The notes below the pieces were generated by a model. That model worked only from the letters and a program-made list of their open reading frames with translations, had not been told where the DNA came from and ran no database searches. Made by a program: the position numbers and the translations under genes. A stretch of DNA of 63,424 nt, the filler included, from Collodictyon triciliatum (taxonomy: Eukaryota): NCBI GenBank assembly GCA_043381765.1. It is 6 parts of 6 records of this genome, joined end to end, with 100 filler letters (N's around TTAATTAATTAA, not from the genome) between each part and the next. Parts side by side here need not be neighbours in the genome. Positions count along the whole stretch, not along the records: positions 10,604 to 21,098 come from JBHJMP010002654.1; 5 more parts are not named here. One strand, written 5' to 3'. This document shows positions 10,504 to 53,052 of the stretch, piece by piece (positions within the stretch are counted from its first letter, which is position 1; each line of letters opens with the position of its first letter).

Positions 10504-10603
10504 NNNNNNNNNNNNNNNNNNNNNNNNNNNNNNNNNNNNNNNNNNNNTTAATTAATTAANNNNNNNNNNNNNNNNNNNNNNNNNNNNNNNNNNNNNNNNN
10601 NNN
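10504..10603. other. Artificial scaffold-joining spacer (N run, TTAATTAATTAA, N run)
   Basis: 100 nt with stops in all six frames; the same spacer occurs at 21099-21198, 31691-31790, 42278-42377 and 52860-52959. Confidence 0.97.
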
Positions 10604-10790: not shown

Positions 10791-15037
<4,247 letters not shown>

Positions 15038-15941: not shown

Positions 15942-15975
<34 letters not shown>

Positions 15976-16091
15976 CCCAATATTTAGGAGATTTTTAATT
16001 TGTGTCGCATCGCTAAATCAGTTGTATGCATCCAGGGTTTATTTGCAAATGATGTAAGTCATCATGAAGTACCTCACTTTTTATTATGATT

Positions 16092-16220
16092 ATACTAGAA
16101 GGGGTATACCAATCTTTCGGCTGGCAAACTTCGTCCGCTAGTATCCAAGATCTCACCAATTTTTTCACTATGGTCGTGTAGTGGTGGAGGCTGCCAGGAA
16201 AGACCCGACAGCCTGTTTTT
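16092..16220 (-). ncRNA. Candidate Fanzor omegaRNA scaffold
   Basis: Lies immediately 3' of the Fanzor ORF. Hairpins at 16188-16214 and 16166-16183, plus a multibranch stem at 16092-16144. The G-U pairs form only on the minus strand. Confidence 0.6.
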
Positions 16221-18192
16221 TTATAGGAAGGTGTTTTTCTTTTTTAAAGGATTAAAAAGAACTTTCTTGAGTATATTATGGGCGCTGTTAAAGTCCCTTG
16301 TCAAGAATATACTTTGTTTGCTTTCTGAGCGATGGCATTCTTTACATATGAAACTTCTATACACTTTTTTTTTATTTCCTTTCGGTTTTATATATTCCAG
16401 TTCCTTTTCGCAGTTGCAGCACATCTTGGAGGTTCTAAATTTATTTACGCTAACTATTTCAAAACGTTTGAATAGTATATTTCGTAATCCTCTTCCGATT
16501 ACTGCCATAAAATGGTTCATCGGACATTTTCTGCTCCAGTCTCCTTACGCCAGTACAACATCCTTGCCAAATGCCTTTTCGATTCAGTCCATAAACAATT
16601 CTTCACTTCCTTTTGTATTAACATACTGCCTTCATCTCATCTTCCGAAAAGTCACTTGTTCATAAAATCCGGAAAACTATCTGGTATCATGGTTTCATTG
16701 ATACATATTCTCGAAATTTTTCATAATCGACCGTGCATGAATTATATTAATCCAGTTCTGTCTCTAAATCGATTAAAGATACTGTTAATGTCTCAAATCA
16801 CTGATTCTCTTCAAAAGTCCTGAGACCAAAAGAAACAGGATTTTGTAAACCTGTTGCCATGCATATCCCTGAATAATTGTACTTTTCTTTCTCGCGTAAG
16901 ATTATTTTGTGATTTATAATGGATTTGCTATGATGTCTTCTTGGTGTGCCGCGTAACGTAATTTCTTACCTGTCTCATCCACCATGTAAACCAAATTAAA
17001 CTTACCTGCGTCCACTCCAACTATTCTTTTTTTGTCGCTAATAAAGATAACAGCTTTTCGGAAAGTTCATCTAAATAAATATATTCTTGGGGGTTTTCGA
17101 TTATATTTTGAATTTTGAATTTGAGATACCTTTCTTTTCAAACAATAATGACACTGCCAACCGTCTGTTTGTATCATGTATTAAATATTGTAGTCTCTTT
17201 GATGAAAGACCCTCTTCTTCATTTCAAAGAACTCATCCCATGGGGTCTCTATGCATCCTGATATATTCTTCAGTAATAATGTTTTTCCAGTTGATACTAA
17301 TAGACTTATCAAACATGCAGTGCTAGAGTAATATGACATGGTATATTGTTAGTTCTTATAGGAATTGATTGGAGCAGTTTGGTTCCAATGTCCTGAAAAA
17401 TGCGATTCATGTAAATTAGACATGGAATGTACTTATTTGGATTGACTTTGACGTCATATTCGATAGTTTTTACAATATCGCTGGGAATGATATGATGCAA
17501 GTGCGTTCTAGTCCATTATTTATATTGTTCCGTTATGTCGAGTTTCTTGAAGATAGCTTCTTTTTTAACTTTCGTAACTCTGCCTTTTTAATAGCTTCCG
17601 TCATATTCTCATCTTTAGGTACTGTTTGATTTATAAAGTGCAGTAACCTCTTTACAAAATGCTCCTTAATGTTATCATGATAAGCTGTTAACACTTGTTT
17701 CGCCAAGTACGGTAATAAATGATACAGTCCAACCAACGAAAAGCGTTCTTGTCGGGACGAAAGGAATCGAAAATCATTAAGATGAAAAAGTCATCATGTC
17801 ATTACTCATTTCTGGATGTTTTAATCTTGCGGGTCTATCTTGTGAAACTATTCTGACTGTCTTCAAAGCGTACAAAAAAAAACAAAAAAAAAACATTTCA
17901 TCGATTGTTGGGACTTTTGTGATTTCAATATGTAACATCTTGCAAACAGATAAGTGTTGGTAGCCAAATTATGACACAATAAAACCGTTTCGTTGATTTT
18001 GTCATAGTCATACGCATTCTTTACAATCGACTCTAAATATGTCTTCACATTTCAATAGCTAGGTTTTACAGACTTTAGATTCTCAGACTCAAGCCGTTTC
18101 CTTTCCTTCTTATGAAAGTCTTTGTTTTACTTTTTCCCATAGAAAACTACCGAGTCTTCAATTTTAATTAGTCAATTTAATAAATAAATAGA
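16095..18192 (-). mobile_element. Non-autonomous Fanzor1-carrying element with possible Helitron-type termini
   Basis: Contains only the Fanzor relic. Putative 3' end is hairpin-10 nt-CTAG|T at 16095; putative 5' end is A|TCTATTTATTTA at 18192. No TIR or TSD found. Boundaries are tentative. Confidence 0.45.
16221..18140 (-). pseudogene. Fanzor1 (eukaryotic TnpB-like RuvC nuclease), disrupted by stops and frameshifts
   Basis: Collinear fragments: VKTYLESIVKN...TYLFARCYIL; YLAKQVLTAYHDNIKEHFVKRLLHFIN; LLQSIPIRTNNIPCHITL; IQTDG; RuvC-I IVGVDAGKFNLVYMVD; FRKMR*RQY...VLA*GDWS; RuvC-II VNKFRTSKMCCNC; CKEC; RuvC-III TRDFNSAHNIL. About 640 codons in total. Confidence 0.9.
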
Positions 18193-18264
18193 TAAACAAC
18201 TGCAAAAAGTCAATTTATTTAAAATTAAGCCTCTACTGAGACTCTCAAAATGTGCGCATTGTGA

Positions 18265-18357
18265 CAAACAAACAAACAAACAAACAAACAAACAAACAAA
18301 CAAACAAACAAACAAACAAACAAACAAACAAACAAACAAACAAACAAACAAACAAAC
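18265..18357. repeat. (AAAC)n microsatellite
   Basis: Direct reading. Confidence 0.95.
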
Positions 18358-18984
18358 CTTGGAAATTAATTATTTCCTACTATTACTGCTTTACTTTAAA
18401 ATCCTTTTCGTTTATCTACCTTATATTCTTGTTACTTTTAATGCGTCGTTCTTATTCTTTTTTACTTGTCCTGAAGATACAGCGAGATTTTCTGCAAGTT
18501 TGGCCGGCAGCAAAGGACAAATAATTTCCAGGCACAAACGCAACGTTGAAACTGGCGCTTCTCCTTGGTAGCCTATAACCCATCTATGGAAAACCTTTTA
18601 CCATACTTTTCGGCCAACTGTCATTTCCCAGGTTCAGTCCTAAATCTGATGTGCGAGGTGGAGGCGATTCCTGAGAAAGCACGCGTGCCTCGCAGCATGT
18701 ATCCACATTAGGAAAATTCTAATTGTGGGGTTTTCATTCGAGAAAGAGCAACAAGCCCAAACGAAGCCGGTGGCCGACGGAGTCCTCTGTGGTGGCATTG
18801 GTCAAACAACCAGGGCATACGATCGAGAGCAACAAACTCGTCCTTCAGTGTTGTTCGTCACACTGGTCTGAGTATATGGTATCGCTGAGGGGGAAATTGG
18901 GCGGCTAACAGTGGTTACCTCTGGCCCTTTTTTTCTTTAATGCACATTCTCATTTATTTTTGCCTCGTATCCTTGGGTAAGCAT

Positions 18985-19357: not shown

Positions 19358-21037
19358 AGAGGATTGGGTAGGATGGACGCTCAATGGCTCAGCCGGGTTG
19401 CTGGATCACACGCCGATCGATACTTGTTGGACCAACACCTAATCCCACTTTGGTCCGAGAGCGGAGCCAATGTACTATCTCTTTGGTCGGTGCTTTTTGT
19501 TCAGAGCTTTTTCACCGCCATCTTTGCCCTGATGCCAATCACTCTGTTTTACGTCCCAGCCCTGACGATGCCTGCAGATGAGCTTAACTTGGTAGTTGAC
19601 CTCATCTATGTGGTTCTTTCAAACGCTATTATGCATACCGCCTTTGCCGCTCTTGCCTGCTTGATTCTTCGTCATCTGTTTGGCTCTCGCATTGCTGCTC
19701 TAGTTGCTTGCAGAATTTACATATATGTATTTCTAGCTGCAGTCTCTTTGTCTTTACCGATTATTTTCGATAAGCCGATTCGTTTGTGGATTCAGCGTTT
19801 TCTTATTATGAGCTACTTTTTTGGCTTCGGTTATATTCACAAATTTGCAGATAGTCTATTACCATATGCAGAATCTGACTTACATCGTAGGCTTCTCGTT
19901 GATGGTACTGCAATTGTTTTGTGTAAAACTTTAGTGGCATGTGTGATATTTTACAATGGTGTTCTAATCGTGTATCCCATTTTTGTAGAGTCAGATTTCT
20001 ATACCCAGTTGTTTATACGGCTAGTTTTTATGCCATTGATTTTCTTCTTTGTGGATTATATACAAATATACTCATTGATTAGTCTGTCGCCTGGACATAT
20101 GACTAAGAGAATGGACATTGTTTCATTGGTGAATTCATATGCTCGACTTCTTGGTAGATTAATGATTGCCACTGTCAACAAGGATAACTATGAACGTAAT
20201 TTGATTGTCATGTGCACCGGTGTTTTACTGATAGATATTTTCAACCGAATTACATATAACATTCGATATCATACTGCTTCTCGACTTCATTTTTTTTGGA
20301 AAAGTACAGATGTAACTGTTGGGTCCATCTATTCTTTTTTAAAAGAAAAGGTCATGTATCCTGTTCACAAAATAACGCATCAATATACTGAAGAACAACA
20401 AAAATACCAGTCGTCCCGAAAGAGAGGCAAAGACAATCCCCACACAGTTAGAGTAGAGCAATCACACAGTACCTCGAGCTCTCCCCATGTCCACGTAACT
20501 GAGGTTGTGGAACACGACCAACAGATTCTGCCTGCTGAAACGGCTGCTTTACAAATATCCGTGGCTGAGGTTGATGATAATCAAAGTCGTTCTGTTAATG
20601 TTCGTATTCATCATACTATATCTTATACTGACAATGCGGAAGGTGATGATAAAGCTCCTTTTGAGCTACCCAGCCCCTTAAAGGAAATGCGTGTCAAGCA
20701 GATCATCGATAATGTGGCCGTTGAGATTCGTCTCTGCATTCTGATGTCTTTCTTTGTGTTCTATATCGGTCGTTTGTTTCCTGCCAATGAGCTCCATTCT
20801 CCGTCCAACCTTGTTCAATGTTTTTATCTGCTCGGAATTCAAGTCATATTCGAATTTATTACAGACGCCGTATCTTTCTATGTAGAAATTTACTTTTATA
20901 AGCTTCCTTTGGACATATCTTACGATGATTTCAAGGGAGTCAATCGACTTGTCTTTGCATTTTCCTTGTATGCTATCATCGGCTTTCAGTCTTACATATC
21001 TTTCATAGTTAATTTTCATTATCATGTTGAAGACTAA
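19358..21037 (+). CDS. Uncharacterised multipass membrane protein (about 8-10 TM) on one large exon; small upstream exons near 18650-18880 are possible
   Basis: Uninterrupted ORF of about 557 aa with many hydrophobic helices and a polar loop. Acceptor AG at 19356-19357; first ATG at 19373. Confidence 0.8.
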   Translation, partial: RGLGRMDAQWLSRVAGSHADRYLLDQHLIPLWSESGANVLSLWSVLFVQSFFTAIFALMPITLFYVPALTMPADELNLVVDLIYVVLSNAIMHTAFAALACLILRHLFGSRIAALVACRIYIYVFLAAVSLSLPIIFDKPIRLWIQRFLIMSYFFGFGYIHKFADSLLPYAESDLHRRLLVDGTAIVLCKTLVACVIFYNGVLIVYPIFVESDFYTQLFIRLVFMPLIFFFVDYIQIYSLISLSPGHMTKRMDIVSLVNSYARLLGRLMIATVNKDNYERNLIVMCTGVLLIDIFNRITYNIRYHTASRLHFFWKSTDVTVGSIYSFLKEKVMYPVHKITHQYTEEQQKYQSSRKRGKDNPHTVRVEQSHSTSSSPHVHVTEVVEHDQQILPAETAALQISVAEVDDNQSRSVNVRIHHTISYTDNAEGDDKAPFELPSPLKEMRVKQIIDNVAVEIRLCILMSFFVFYIGRLFPANELHSPSNLVQCFYLLGIQVIFEFITDAVSFYVEIYFYKLPLDISYDDFKGVNRLVFAFSLYAIIGFQSYISFIVNFHYHVED

Positions 21038-21098: not shown

Positions 21099-21198
21099 NN
21101 NNNNNNNNNNNNNNNNNNNNNNNNNNNNNNNNNNNNNNNNNNTTAATTAATTAANNNNNNNNNNNNNNNNNNNNNNNNNNNNNNNNNNNNNNNNNNNN

Positions 21199-21349: not shown

Positions 21350-30108
<8,759 letters not shown>

Positions 30109-31554: not shown

Positions 31555-31645
31555 TTTGTTTGTTTGTTTGTTTGTTTGTTTGTTTGTTTGTTTGTTTGTT
31601 TGTTTGTTTGTTTGTTTGTTTGTTTGTTTGTTTGTTTGTTTGTTT
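31555..31645. repeat. (TTTG)n microsatellite
   Basis: Direct reading. Confidence 0.95.
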
Positions 31646-31790
31646 TTGTACGCTTTAAAGACAGTCGGAGGAGTTTCTTAACATAGACACNNNNNNNNNN
31701 NNNNNNNNNNNNNNNNNNNNNNNNNNNNNNNNNNTTAATTAATTAANNNNNNNNNNNNNNNNNNNNNNNNNNNNNNNNNNNNNNNNNNNN

Positions 31791-42156: not shown

Positions 42157-42502
42157 GAGGAATAAAAAGAAGGATTGAGCTCAAGCTATCGATCCACGGA
42201 TAGCAAGATAATTGTGAATAAAATGTTCAGTATTAGTTGCTCTGATTCATTTCTCTTTTCTTTTTTCTTTTTCTTTTNNNNNNNNNNNNNNNNNNNNNNN
42301 NNNNNNNNNNNNNNNNNNNNNTTAATTAATTAANNNNNNNNNNNNNNNNNNNNNNNNNNNNNNNNNNNNNNNNNNNNAAAAACAACAAAAAAAACAACAA
42401 AAAAAACAACAAAAAAAACAACAAAAAAAACAACAAAAAACAACAAAAAACAACAAAAAAACCTCCCAGAAACCGCCCGAACTTCGATTCAAGACCCCGA
42501 AG

Positions 42503-52859: not shown

Positions 52860-53052
52860 NNNNNNNNNNNNNNNNNNNNNNNNNNNNNNNNNNNNNNNNN
52901 NNNTTAATTAATTAANNNNNNNNNNNNNNNNNNNNNNNNNNNNNNNNNNNNNNNNNNNNTAAAACAAGAAAACATGTAACGAAATCAATGAATGGACGAA
53001 TTAAACCTAAAAGAGTGACAAAGGGACCATATGAGTTACAAATGGAATATTC

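What the first reader, a model, noticed from the sequence alone, without database searches (positions are those of the whole stretch)
16040..16230. Structured candidate omegaRNA directly downstream of the Fanzor ORF
Seen on the minus strand, starting a few nt after the stop: (1) an 11-bp hairpin AGGCUGUCGGG-UCUUU-CCUGGCAGCCU; (2) CACUA...UAGUG; (3) a stem AUACUAG...CUAGUAU enclosing CGGAC-GAA-GUUUG and CCAGCC-GAAA-GAUUGG. The wobble pairs are G-U only on the Fanzor sense strand, which suggests selection at the RNA level. Known: TnpB/Fanzor omegaRNAs come from the element 3' end, and the flanking host DNA supplies the guide. Inference: the scaffold runs about 16220 to 16095, and the spacer would begin near UAUAAUCAUAAUAAAAAG.
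Basis: partly seen in the sequence, partly recalled or inferred. Interest (0 to 1): 0.78.

Follow-up and report, generated by a model that had tools for sequence, protein, structure and literature searches.

The report
Relic Fanzor guide-RNA hairpin
At the tail of a dead copy of a eukaryotic RNA-guided nuclease gene (Fanzor1) sits one very stable RNA hairpin, probably what is left of the nuclease's guide RNA, while the rest of the proposed RNA folds no better than shuffled sequence.

Summary
Only the first element exceeds chance. That is the 11-bp hairpin at 16214-16188 (-19.2 kcal/mol, z -5.85, 0 of 200 shuffles as good), the most stable of 391 simple hairpins found on both strands of the window.

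Stems 2 and 3 fold like shuffled sequence. The remainder, 16085-16187, gives z -0.85.

The adjacent "Fanzor ORF" is a heavily decayed Fanzor1 pseudogene with 9 frame changes and 9 in-frame stops. Its apparent stop at 16221-16223 follows a frame shift. In the ancestral frame the reading continues KKQAVG... through the hairpin to a TAG at 16168-16170, as in the closest relatives.

The hairpin begins where the conserved protein ends. Published Fanzor1 omegaRNAs, and three distant loci fetched here, carry their first stem-loop (SL1) at that position. Two relatives' tail peptides differ from the window but can still encode all 11 pairs. This support is indirect and modest.

The hairpin is not the canonical SL1 of 7 bp with a 6-nt loop. 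No DNA of close relatives could be reached, so covariation, the element's right end and the guide remain untested.

Verdict: probable relic of an omegaRNA SL1, a known kind of element, and of low interest.

The parts
16188..16214 (-). Hairpin 1: 11 uninterrupted pairs (7 G-C, 2 A-U, 2 G-U) with a 5-nt loop. Candidate relic of omegaRNA stem-loop 1.
   Evidence: -19.2 kcal/mol, z -5.85, 0 of 200 shuffles as good, rank 1 of 391 hairpins. It lies at the end of the conserved protein. The tail peptides of P0002 and P0172 can each still encode 11 of 11 pairs.
16168..16251 (-). Ancestral C-terminal reading frame, SFKKEKHLPIKKQAVGSFLAASTTTRP*. It runs through hairpin 1 and ends at TAG 16168-16170.
   Evidence: ORF. 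BLASTP to P0002 residues 628-642 gives 9 of 15 identical, E 0.031. KKQAVG is also present in P0001 and P0172.
16221..16223 (-). Present-day stop codon (TAA) of the 16221-16544 ORF. It is secondary to a frame change between about 16257 and 16222, a stretch that holds the A-rich run 16234-16245.
   Evidence: The window has 35 nt where P0002 has 11 residues (33 nt), by my count from those outputs.
16166..16183 (-). Stem 2 (CACUA / UAGUG). It contains the ancestral stop TAG.
   Evidence: Present. Region 16146-16187 gives z -1.15, with 32 of 200 shuffles as good. Not above chance.
16092..16144 (-). Domain 3 (AUACUAG...CUAGUAU with two inner hairpins).
   Evidence: Present. Region 16092-16146 gives z -1.27, 28 of 200. 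Not above chance, and whether it belongs to the element is unknown.
16170..18108 (-). Fanzor1 pseudogene.
   Evidence: tblastn against P0002. Chain of 10 collinear segments with 9 frame changes and 9 in-frame stops. The TNB zinc-ribbon family PF07282 scores 26.3 bits, at its cut-off. GVDAG and RDFNSA motifs were read in the translation.
31646..31690 (+). Second Fanzor fragment (LYALKTVGGVS*), cut off by a contig end. It shows that the element is repeated in this genome.

Best explanation
The region is the 3' end of a long-dead Fanzor1 transposon nuclease gene. Hairpin 1 (16214-16188, minus strand) is most likely the relic of stem-loop 1 of that element's omegaRNA.

In intact relatives the expected mechanism is as follows; it is inferred from published Fanzor1 systems and not shown here. 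The 3' part of the Fanzor transcript is an RNA whose first stem-loop overlaps the last codons of the ORF and binds the RuvC/TNB face of the nuclease. A variable scaffold then runs to the transposon's right end. The next 14-21 nt, copied from flanking DNA, act as the guide for cutting DNA next to a TAM.

In this copy the nuclease is destroyed. Only SL1 still stands out as structure. The locus is therefore inert unless an intact copy elsewhere uses the RNA in trans.
For: Shown here:
1. Hairpin 1 is exceptional. It gives z -5.85 with 0 of 200 shuffles as good, ranks 1 of 391, and is far weaker on the antisense strand (-10.4 kcal/mol).
2. The gene is Fanzor1.
3. The hairpin starts 7 nt after the codon that aligns with the F of the '...RP..F.R' end of the conserved protein. 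In the 107 of 175 collected relatives where that motif could be located (loose pattern), the tails beyond it run from 0 to 93 residues, and 17 of 107 stop within 3 residues. That pattern is what translation running on into a non-coding RNA gene would give.
4. The window, P0001, P0002 and P0172 share KKQAVG (the 5' arm) and then diverge: SFLAAS, YLP*, YSSTAL and FHSAAC, with four different stops.
5. In the same register P0002 and P0172 can each still encode 11 of 11 pairs. Random hexapeptides do so in 10 of 5000 draws. Under a neutral-drift null starting from the window's own hairpin the chance is 0.10-0.15 per relative.
6. In real DNA of distant relatives, 3 of 5 loci (L001, L002, L005) have exactly one AAUUCA-prefixed hairpin of 7 bp with a 6-nt loop on the sense strand, and it sits at the ORF end. 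All 7 of its pairs change on both sides among the three loci, with 0 of 500 shuffles as high.
7. The AlphaFold model of P0002 has pLDDT below 50 for residues 621-648, which is the tail. The model is poor overall, with mean pLDDT 61.

From papers:
- SL1 is the one conserved omegaRNA element of Fz1, and 'the region beyond SL1 ... may not be constrained' (PMC11423790, section 5 read whole).
- The GtFz1 omegaRNA overlaps 17 C-terminal codons (PMC10432273, passage).
Against: - The hairpin has 11 pairs and a 5-nt loop, not the seven pairs reported for SL1. It also lacks the UUCA/UUCC-type prefix directly before the stem.
- A covariance model built from L001, L002 and L005 gives no match at the locus at E<=10.
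- There is no nucleotide similarity between the window's 3' region and the five distant loci.
- No DNA of any close relative was available, so no true covariation test was possible. The peptide-based test is indirect, and under the fair null it is only modest: about 0.1-0.15 per relative, and the two relatives are not independent.
- The KKQAVG match on its own is marginal (E 0.031).
- Everything beyond hairpin 1 folds like shuffled sequence. The equivalent ~106-nt stretches give z -4.48 (0 of 200) in L001 and z -3.48 (0 of 200) in L005, but only z -1.42 (11 of 200) in L002.
- There is no expression evidence.
Confidence: 0.6

Rival explanations
1. An essentially intact scaffold of about 125 nt runs from about 16220 to 16095 (hairpin 1, stem 2 and domain 3), and the guide starts at UAUAAUCAUAAUAAAAAG.
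For: - The size fits known Fz1 omegaRNAs. These are 75-150 nt in PMC11423790 section 5 and 71-229 nt for the Fanzor1 rows of the supplementary table of PMC10432273.
- The minimum-free-energy fold of the whole stretch reproduces the drawn stems.
Against: - Stems 2 and 3 are not better than shuffles: z -1.15, -1.27 and -0.85.
- Nothing marks 16095 as an element end. No inverted repeat was found and there is no second copy to show where homology stops.
- A short scaffold ending near 16150, or a long one reaching about 15985, is equally allowed.
Confidence: 0.12
2. Hairpin 1 is a chance palindrome in decaying sequence and has no RNA function.
For: - The copy is a pseudogene.
- The hairpin does not match the canonical SL1 geometry.
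- There is only one instance in the window.
Against: - 0 of 200 shuffles fold as well, and it ranks first among 391 hairpins in 63 kb on both strands.
- Its position coincides with the expected SL1 site.
- Its 5' arm is shared with three relatives, and two relatives' tails remain fully compatible with pairing.
Confidence: 0.1
3. The hairpin is a cis element with another role. It could be a subterminal hairpin recognised by a transposase, or an mRNA 3'-end or stability element of the Fanzor transcript, rather than part of the guide RNA.
For: - It lies near the 3' end of a mobile element.
- Its geometry differs from that of SL1.
- From general knowledge: ends of IS200/IS605-type elements carry hairpins that TnpA uses.
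Against: - No transposase gene or terminal repeat was seen around the locus.
- In the studied Fz1 systems the first hairpin at this position is the nuclease-binding SL1.
Confidence: 0.1
4. KKQAVG... is a functional C-terminal peptide of the nuclease, and the hairpin is a by-product of that coding sequence.
For: The six residues are identical in the window, P0001, P0002 and P0172.
Against: - Directly after them the four sequences differ at almost every residue and stop at four different places.
- Many family members end before this point.
- The tail is predicted to be disordered, though the model is weak.
Confidence: 0.06

Closest known systems
GtFz1 omegaRNA (Guillardia theta Fanzor1; PMC10432273, PMC11423790)
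   Same: - Sense-strand RNA at the 3' end of a Fanzor1 gene.
- Its 5' part overlaps the last codons of the ORF: 17 aa in GtFz1, and about 16 codons from the hairpin's start to the ancestral stop here.
- GtFz1 is the best solved-structure match of the nearest full-length relative, P0002 (E 2.1e-28).
   Different: - SL1 of GtFz1 has seven pairs. The hairpin here has 11 pairs and a 5-nt loop.
- GtFz1 has three further stem-loops that are seen in the structure. Here nothing beyond the first hairpin exceeds chance.
- The nuclease here is dead.
SpuFz1 and PpFz1 omegaRNAs (Spizellomyces punctatus, Parasitella parasitica)
   Same: - The order is SL1 first, then a variable part, then the guide from the flank.
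- The proteins are homologous (E 3.7e-23 and 2.7e-24 against P0002).
   Different: - In those RNAs a 7-bp stem with a 6-nt loop follows directly on a UUCC/AUCC-type motif. This is my reading by eye of the table rows.
- The SpuFz1 RNA lies wholly downstream of the stop.
- Their element ends are defined by 30-nt inverted repeats. None were found here.
Fanzor1-like loci L001, L002 and L005 (contigs of metagenome-assembled genomes labelled bacterial)
   Same: A hairpin sits at or over the end of the ORF, right after the RP..F/Y motif.
   Different: - Their hairpin is AAUUCA followed by 7 bp and a 6-nt loop, and all seven pairs covary.
- A model built from them does not find the window's hairpin.
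- The proteins are only 25-31% identical to P0002 over the best segment (all five loci span 22-31%).
ISDra2 TnpB omegaRNA (bacterial OMEGA system)
   Same: The guide RNA is derived from the 3' end of the nuclease gene, overlaps the ORF, and takes its guide from beyond the right end (as cited in PMC10432273).
   Different: - It is a bacterial IS200/IS605 element with a different scaffold.
- Processing by TnpB itself is reported in PMC10278001. I saw only its search listing and the start of its abstract.
S. punctatus 'ghost' loci (an omegaRNA without a Fanzor gene)
   Same: An omegaRNA-bearing locus without a working nuclease, which could be served in trans.
   Different: Ghost loci are conserved, bounded by inverted repeats, and shown to be active with SpuFz1. 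Here there is a single decayed copy and no evidence of use.

Membership tests
Fanzor1 omegaRNA | Encoded on the sense strand at the 3' end of a Fanzor/TnpB-family gene | tested here: met
   The pseudogene at 18108-16170 (-) is collinear with P0002. The hairpin at 16214-16188 (-) lies at its 3' end.
Fanzor1 omegaRNA | The first stem-loop sits where the conserved protein ends, overlapping or just after the stop | tested here: met
   The hairpin starts 7 nt after the codon aligned with the F of RP..F.R. The equivalent distances in L005, L001 and L002 are 9, 11 and 16 nt (my count).
Fanzor1 omegaRNA | SL1 of seven base pairs (PMC11423790, section 5) | tested here: not met
   The hairpin has 11 uninterrupted pairs and a 5-nt loop. 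The window has no 7-bp/6-nt hairpin with a TTCA/TTCC/ATCC prefix at the locus. Model R1 gives no hit there at E<=10.
Fanzor1 omegaRNA | Structured scaffold between SL1 and the guide | tested here: inconclusive
   Region 16085-16187 gives z -0.85, with 38 of 200 shuffles as good. The published view is that this part is variable and may be unconstrained, and this copy is decayed.
Fanzor1 omegaRNA | Scaffold conserved between copies up to the transposon's right end, followed by a variable 14-21-nt guide | not testable with these tools
   The window holds no second 3' end. Close relatives are known only as proteins.
Fanzor1 omegaRNA | Base pairs supported by covariation | tested here: inconclusive
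   Only an indirect peptide-compatibility test was possible. P0002 and P0172 each allow 11 of 11 pairs. The random null gives 10 of 5000 and the neutral-drift null 0.10-0.15.
Fanzor1 omegaRNA | Transcribed and bound by the nuclease | not testable with these tools
   No expression data are available.
Fanzor1 omegaRNA | Partner nuclease intact in cis | tested here: not met
   9 frame changes and 9 in-frame stops relative to P0002.
Fanzor1 nuclease (the neighbouring gene) | Homology to solved Fanzor1 proteins; TNB zinc ribbon; RuvC motifs | tested here: met
   The window's C-terminal fragment is 68% identical to P0002. P0002 matches 9cer, 9cf0 and 8gkh at E 2e-28 to 4e-23. PF07282 scores 26.3 bits against a cut-off of 26.3. 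GVDAG and RDFNSA were read.
Any Rfam family | Score at or above the gathering threshold | tested here: not met
   0 matches in the whole window. At E<=1 the only match is snoZ196 on the opposite strand, 22.6 bits against a threshold of 55.

The most novel reading that the evidence does not exclude
An uncharacterised Fanzor1 subfamily (the window's copy, P0001, P0002 and P0172) uses an omegaRNA whose first stem-loop is extended to 11 pairs and is written inside the last codons of the nuclease gene. In this genome the hairpin has outlived its own nuclease because the orphan RNA is still used in trans by intact copies, as with the 'ghost' omegaRNAs of S. punctatus.
Probability: 0.12. Interest if true: 0.45.

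Novelty: new member of a known kind. Interest (0 to 1): 0.22.

Why it matters
If the reading holds, it adds one more Fanzor1 lineage in which the guide RNA begins inside the coding tail, with a longer first stem than the seven pairs seen in the three solved complexes. That would be a small datum on how much SL1 can vary.

It also explains why database 'proteins' of this family carry variable C-terminal tails: those tails would be translated guide-RNA sequence.

The family is large, with 6223 cluster representatives at E<=0.001. The locus itself is a dead copy and offers no new mechanism.

Tried and rejected
1. Generic back-translation test, asking whether a relative's tail could encode any long hairpin. 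It has no power. Shuffled tails did as well or better: 31 of 200 for P0002, and 83 to 193 of 200 for six other relatives' tails and the window's own frame (no bulge allowed).
2. A covariance model of the canonical SL1, built from L001, L002 and L005, found nothing at the locus.
3. Alignment and BLAST of the window's 3' region against the five distant loci showed no similarity.
4. Search for terminal inverted repeats. The best pair is 17 nt at 82% identity (18363-18379 with 15985-16001), E 1.1, among 121 inverted pairs in 3 kb. Rejected as a boundary.
5. Search for other copies of the hairpin or of the locus in the window found none. The exception is a 45-nt fragment from the N-terminal part of the gene at a contig end.
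6. Homology upstream of the two (GTTT)n tracts, tried as a way to find a left end, gave nothing.
7. Rfam gave nothing.
8. My first regular expression for the RuvC-III motif in the loci returned nothing and was replaced by tblastn.
9. I first supposed that P0002 has a longer loop and a bulge. I withdrew this once the gapless BLASTP alignment showed the same register.
10. The phage, plasmid and E. coli collections were not searched, because a eukaryotic transposon is not expected there.
Full report
**What is in the sequence.**
- Hairpin 1 is AGGCUGUCGGG (16214-16204), loop UCUUU (16203-16199) and CCUGGCAGCCU (16198-16188). It forms 11 uninterrupted pairs, two of them G-U.
- Stem 2 is CACUA (16183-16179) with UAGUG (16170-16166).
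- Stem 3 is AUACUAG (16144-16138) with CUAGUAU (16098-16092), and it encloses the two small hairpins.

**Is it more than chance?** Only hairpin 1 is.
- Hairpin 1 folds at -19.2 kcal/mol against a shuffle mean of -7.14 (z -5.85, 0 of 200 shuffles as good). Its reverse complement reaches only -10.4 kcal/mol.
- A scan of both strands of the 63-kb window for uninterrupted hairpins (stem >=8, loop 3-8) found 391, and this one is the most stable.
- Region 16146-16187 gives z -1.15 (32 of 200). Region 16092-16146 gives z -1.27 (28 of 200). Region 15985-16095 gives z 0.05.
- Everything after hairpin 1, 16085-16187, gives z -0.85 (38 of 200).
- The whole 141 nt gives z -2.49 on the sense strand and z -1.81 on the antisense strand. 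Hairpin 1 therefore carries the signal.
- Rfam has nothing at gathering scores in the window. At E<=1 it has only a sub-threshold snoRNA match on the other strand.

**The neighbouring gene.** The 'Fanzor ORF' is a pseudogene.
- The C-terminal ORF (16221-16544) hits the Cas12f1-like TNB zinc ribbon exactly at Pfam's cut-off (26.3 bits).
- It is 68% identical to two database proteins, P0001 and P0002.
- P0002 (648 aa) matches the solved Fanzor1 proteins of Guillardia, Parasitella and Spizellomyces at E 2.1e-28, 2.7e-24 and 3.7e-23.
- Against P0002 the window aligns from 18108 to about 16170 as 10 collinear pieces, with 9 frame changes and 9 in-frame stops.
- The family is large. A profile of 17 members finds 6223 cluster representatives at E<=0.001 and 1297 at E<=1e-30.

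**The stop codon is secondary.**
- The relatives read on past that point. P0002 ends ...HTKLFKKQAVGYSSTALTVTHKRMRM, P0001 ends ...LFKKQAVGYLP and P0172 ends ...LFKKQAVGFHSAACMVTHRNM.
- A different frame of the window, ORF 16168-16251, reads SFKKEKHLPIKKQAVGSFLAASTTTRP*. It aligns without gaps to P0002 residues 628-642 (9 of 15 identical, E 0.031 for that single comparison).
- The frame change falls between about 16257 and 16222, a stretch that contains an A-rich run (16234-16245).
- Hairpin 1 therefore lies inside the ancestral coding tail. Q-A-V-G is its 5' arm, and the ancestral stop (TAG, 16168-16170) sits in stem 2.

**Why an omegaRNA stem-loop is the best reading.**
- Published Fanzor1 omegaRNAs start with a stem-loop, SL1, that binds the RuvC/TNB domains. 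It is the one conserved RNA element, and 'the region beyond SL1 ... may not be constrained' (PMC11423790, section 5 read whole).
- These RNAs come from the 3' end of the element and read 14-15 nt into the flank. The GtFz1 RNA overlaps 17 C-terminal codons (PMC10432273, passages). Jiang et al. report the same 3' origin (PMC10530073, passages).
- In this family the conserved protein ends at an '...RP..F.R' motif. Beyond it the tails vary from 0 to 93 residues in the 107 of 175 proteins where a loose pattern located the motif, and 17 of 107 stop within three residues. That is what translation running on into an RNA gene would give.
- The window's hairpin begins 7 nt after the codon aligned with that F.
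- One scan of genome contigs returned five distant Fanzor1-like loci, 22-31% identical to P0002. Three of the five (L001, L002, L005) have exactly one AAUUCA-prefixed hairpin of 7 bp with a 6-nt loop on the sense strand, at or over the ORF end. All seven of its pairs change on both sides among the three loci, with 0 of 500 shuffles as high.
- The other two loci, L003 and L004, have no such clean hairpin.

**Indirect test of conservation.** No DNA of close relatives could be fetched. I asked instead whether their tail peptides, in the gapless register, could still encode the hairpin.
- P0002 (YSSTAL) and P0172 (FHSAAC) each allow 11 of 11 pairs, although they differ from the window (SFLAAS) at 5 and 4 of 6 residues.
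- Random hexapeptides reach 11 pairs in 10 of 5000 draws, and shuffles of P0002's own tail in 18 of 5000.
- A fairer null lets the window's own hairpin drift by random substitutions until at least 4 of 6 residues differ. It gives 0.10-0.15 per relative.
- This is modest support, and the two relatives are not independent.
- P0001 stops inside the 3' arm and cannot be tested in that register.
- An AlphaFold model of P0002 puts the tail (residues 621-648) below pLDDT 50, but the model is weak overall, with mean pLDDT 61.

**What speaks against, and what stays open.**
- The hairpin is not canonical. It has 11 pairs and a 5-nt loop, against the seven pairs reported for SL1, and no UUCA/UUCC-type prefix directly before the stem.
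- The covariance model built from L001, L002 and L005 does not find it at E<=10.
- The window's 3' region shows no sequence similarity to the distant loci.
- The ~106-nt regions after SL1 give z -4.48 in L001 and z -3.48 in L005 (0 of 200 shuffles each), but only z -1.42 in L002 (11 of 200). The window's does not fold above chance.
- The right end of the element is unknown. No terminal inverted repeat was found; the best pair is 17 nt at 82% identity, E 1.1. There is no second copy of the 3' end.
An end near 16150 or near 15985 is equally allowed.
- The wobble argument is weak. With two G-U pairs and no mismatch, neutral transitions would give that outcome a quarter of the time (my reasoning).

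**Context.**
- The window is not one stretch of genome. It is six pieces of 10503 to 10465 bases, in descending order of length, joined by N44-TTAATTAATTAA-N44 linkers.
- The end of the third piece holds a second Fanzor fragment (31646-31690, LYALKTVGGVS*), cut off by the contig end.
- P0173 and P0175 are further decayed copies in public data. P0173 matches even an out-of-frame translation of the window at 29 of 32 residues, by my comparison by eye.
- The element is therefore repeated, and other copies should allow the decisive alignment.

**Verdict.** The region is the 3' end of a dead Fanzor1 gene. One exceptional hairpin there is probably the relic of omegaRNA SL1 (confidence about 0.6). 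It is a known kind of element in an uncharacterised subfamily, and of low interest.

**Unchecked.**
- Of the supplements, I read only Supplementary file 5 of PMC10432273 and Table S3 of PMC11423790. The larger tables of Fanzor loci in PMC10432273 (files 3 and 4) were not opened and might list this subfamily.
- In two full-text searches I saw no paper on this subfamily's RNA, but I did not search for it specifically.

Noticed in passing
window 10504-10603, 21099-21198, 31691-31790, 42278-42377, 52860-52959: The window is a concatenation of six pieces of 10503, 10495, 10492, 10487, 10482 and 10465 bases, in descending order. They are joined by N44-TTAATTAATTAA-N44 linkers. Most piece ends lie in microsatellites, and the pieces share no similarity with each other. 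Features must not be read across these joints.
   Followed up: yes
window 31646-31690 (+), preceded by (GTTT)n at 31555-31645: A second Fanzor fragment (LYALKTVGGVS* against LYALKTVGIVS in P0002) runs into the end of its contig and carries a stop of its own. It is 84% identical over 64 nt to 17833-17895. The element is repeated in this genome.
   Followed up: partly
proteins P0173 (136 aa) and P0175 (82 aa): Public protein sets hold short ORFs from further decayed copies, 73-76% identical to the window's C-terminal ORF. P0173 begins in a frame that matches an out-of-frame translation of the window (16517-16636) at 29 of 32 residues, so its DNA must be close to the window's. Its DNA could not be fetched.
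   Followed up: no
L001 552-584, L002 3230-3262, L005 1390-1422: Contigs of metagenome-assembled genomes labelled bacterial (Chitinophagia, Planctomycetia, Alphaproteobacteria) carry Fanzor1-like genes with an AAUUCA + 7-bp + 6-nt-loop hairpin at the ORF end. All seven pairs covary. These contigs may be eukaryotic or giant-virus DNA binned by mistake.
   Followed up: partly
L001 623-654 and L003 4752-4783: The two loci share a 32-nt block (84% identical, E 1.2e-5) about 60-100 nt downstream of the ORF ends, after which they diverge. It is likely the conserved 3' part of their omegaRNA scaffold, next to the guide.
   Followed up: no
window 18264-18360 and 15943-15975: A (GTTT)n tract of about 24 units lies upstream of the pseudogene, and a 33-nt poly(A/T) run lies downstream of it. 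The same (GTTT)n tract abuts the second Fanzor fragment. No homology was found beyond the tracts.
   Followed up: partly
window 23265-23782 and 24491-24908: There are two long runs of N (518 and 418 bases) inside the third piece, which are assembly gaps.
   Followed up: no
window 13730-15037 (-) and 19364-21037 (+): The two long ORFs flanking the pseudogene (435 and 557 aa) have no Pfam match at E<=0.1. The first is rich in Ser, Thr and Pro, and the second looks like a multi-pass membrane protein.
   Followed up: no
family tails: In the larger sister group (P0003-P0012 and others) the tail ...GLT..(variable)..EKVGQSVDFTVGKAT is conserved as peptide across many members. This may mark their omegaRNA 5' region or a real peptide. 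It cannot be resolved without DNA.
   Followed up: no
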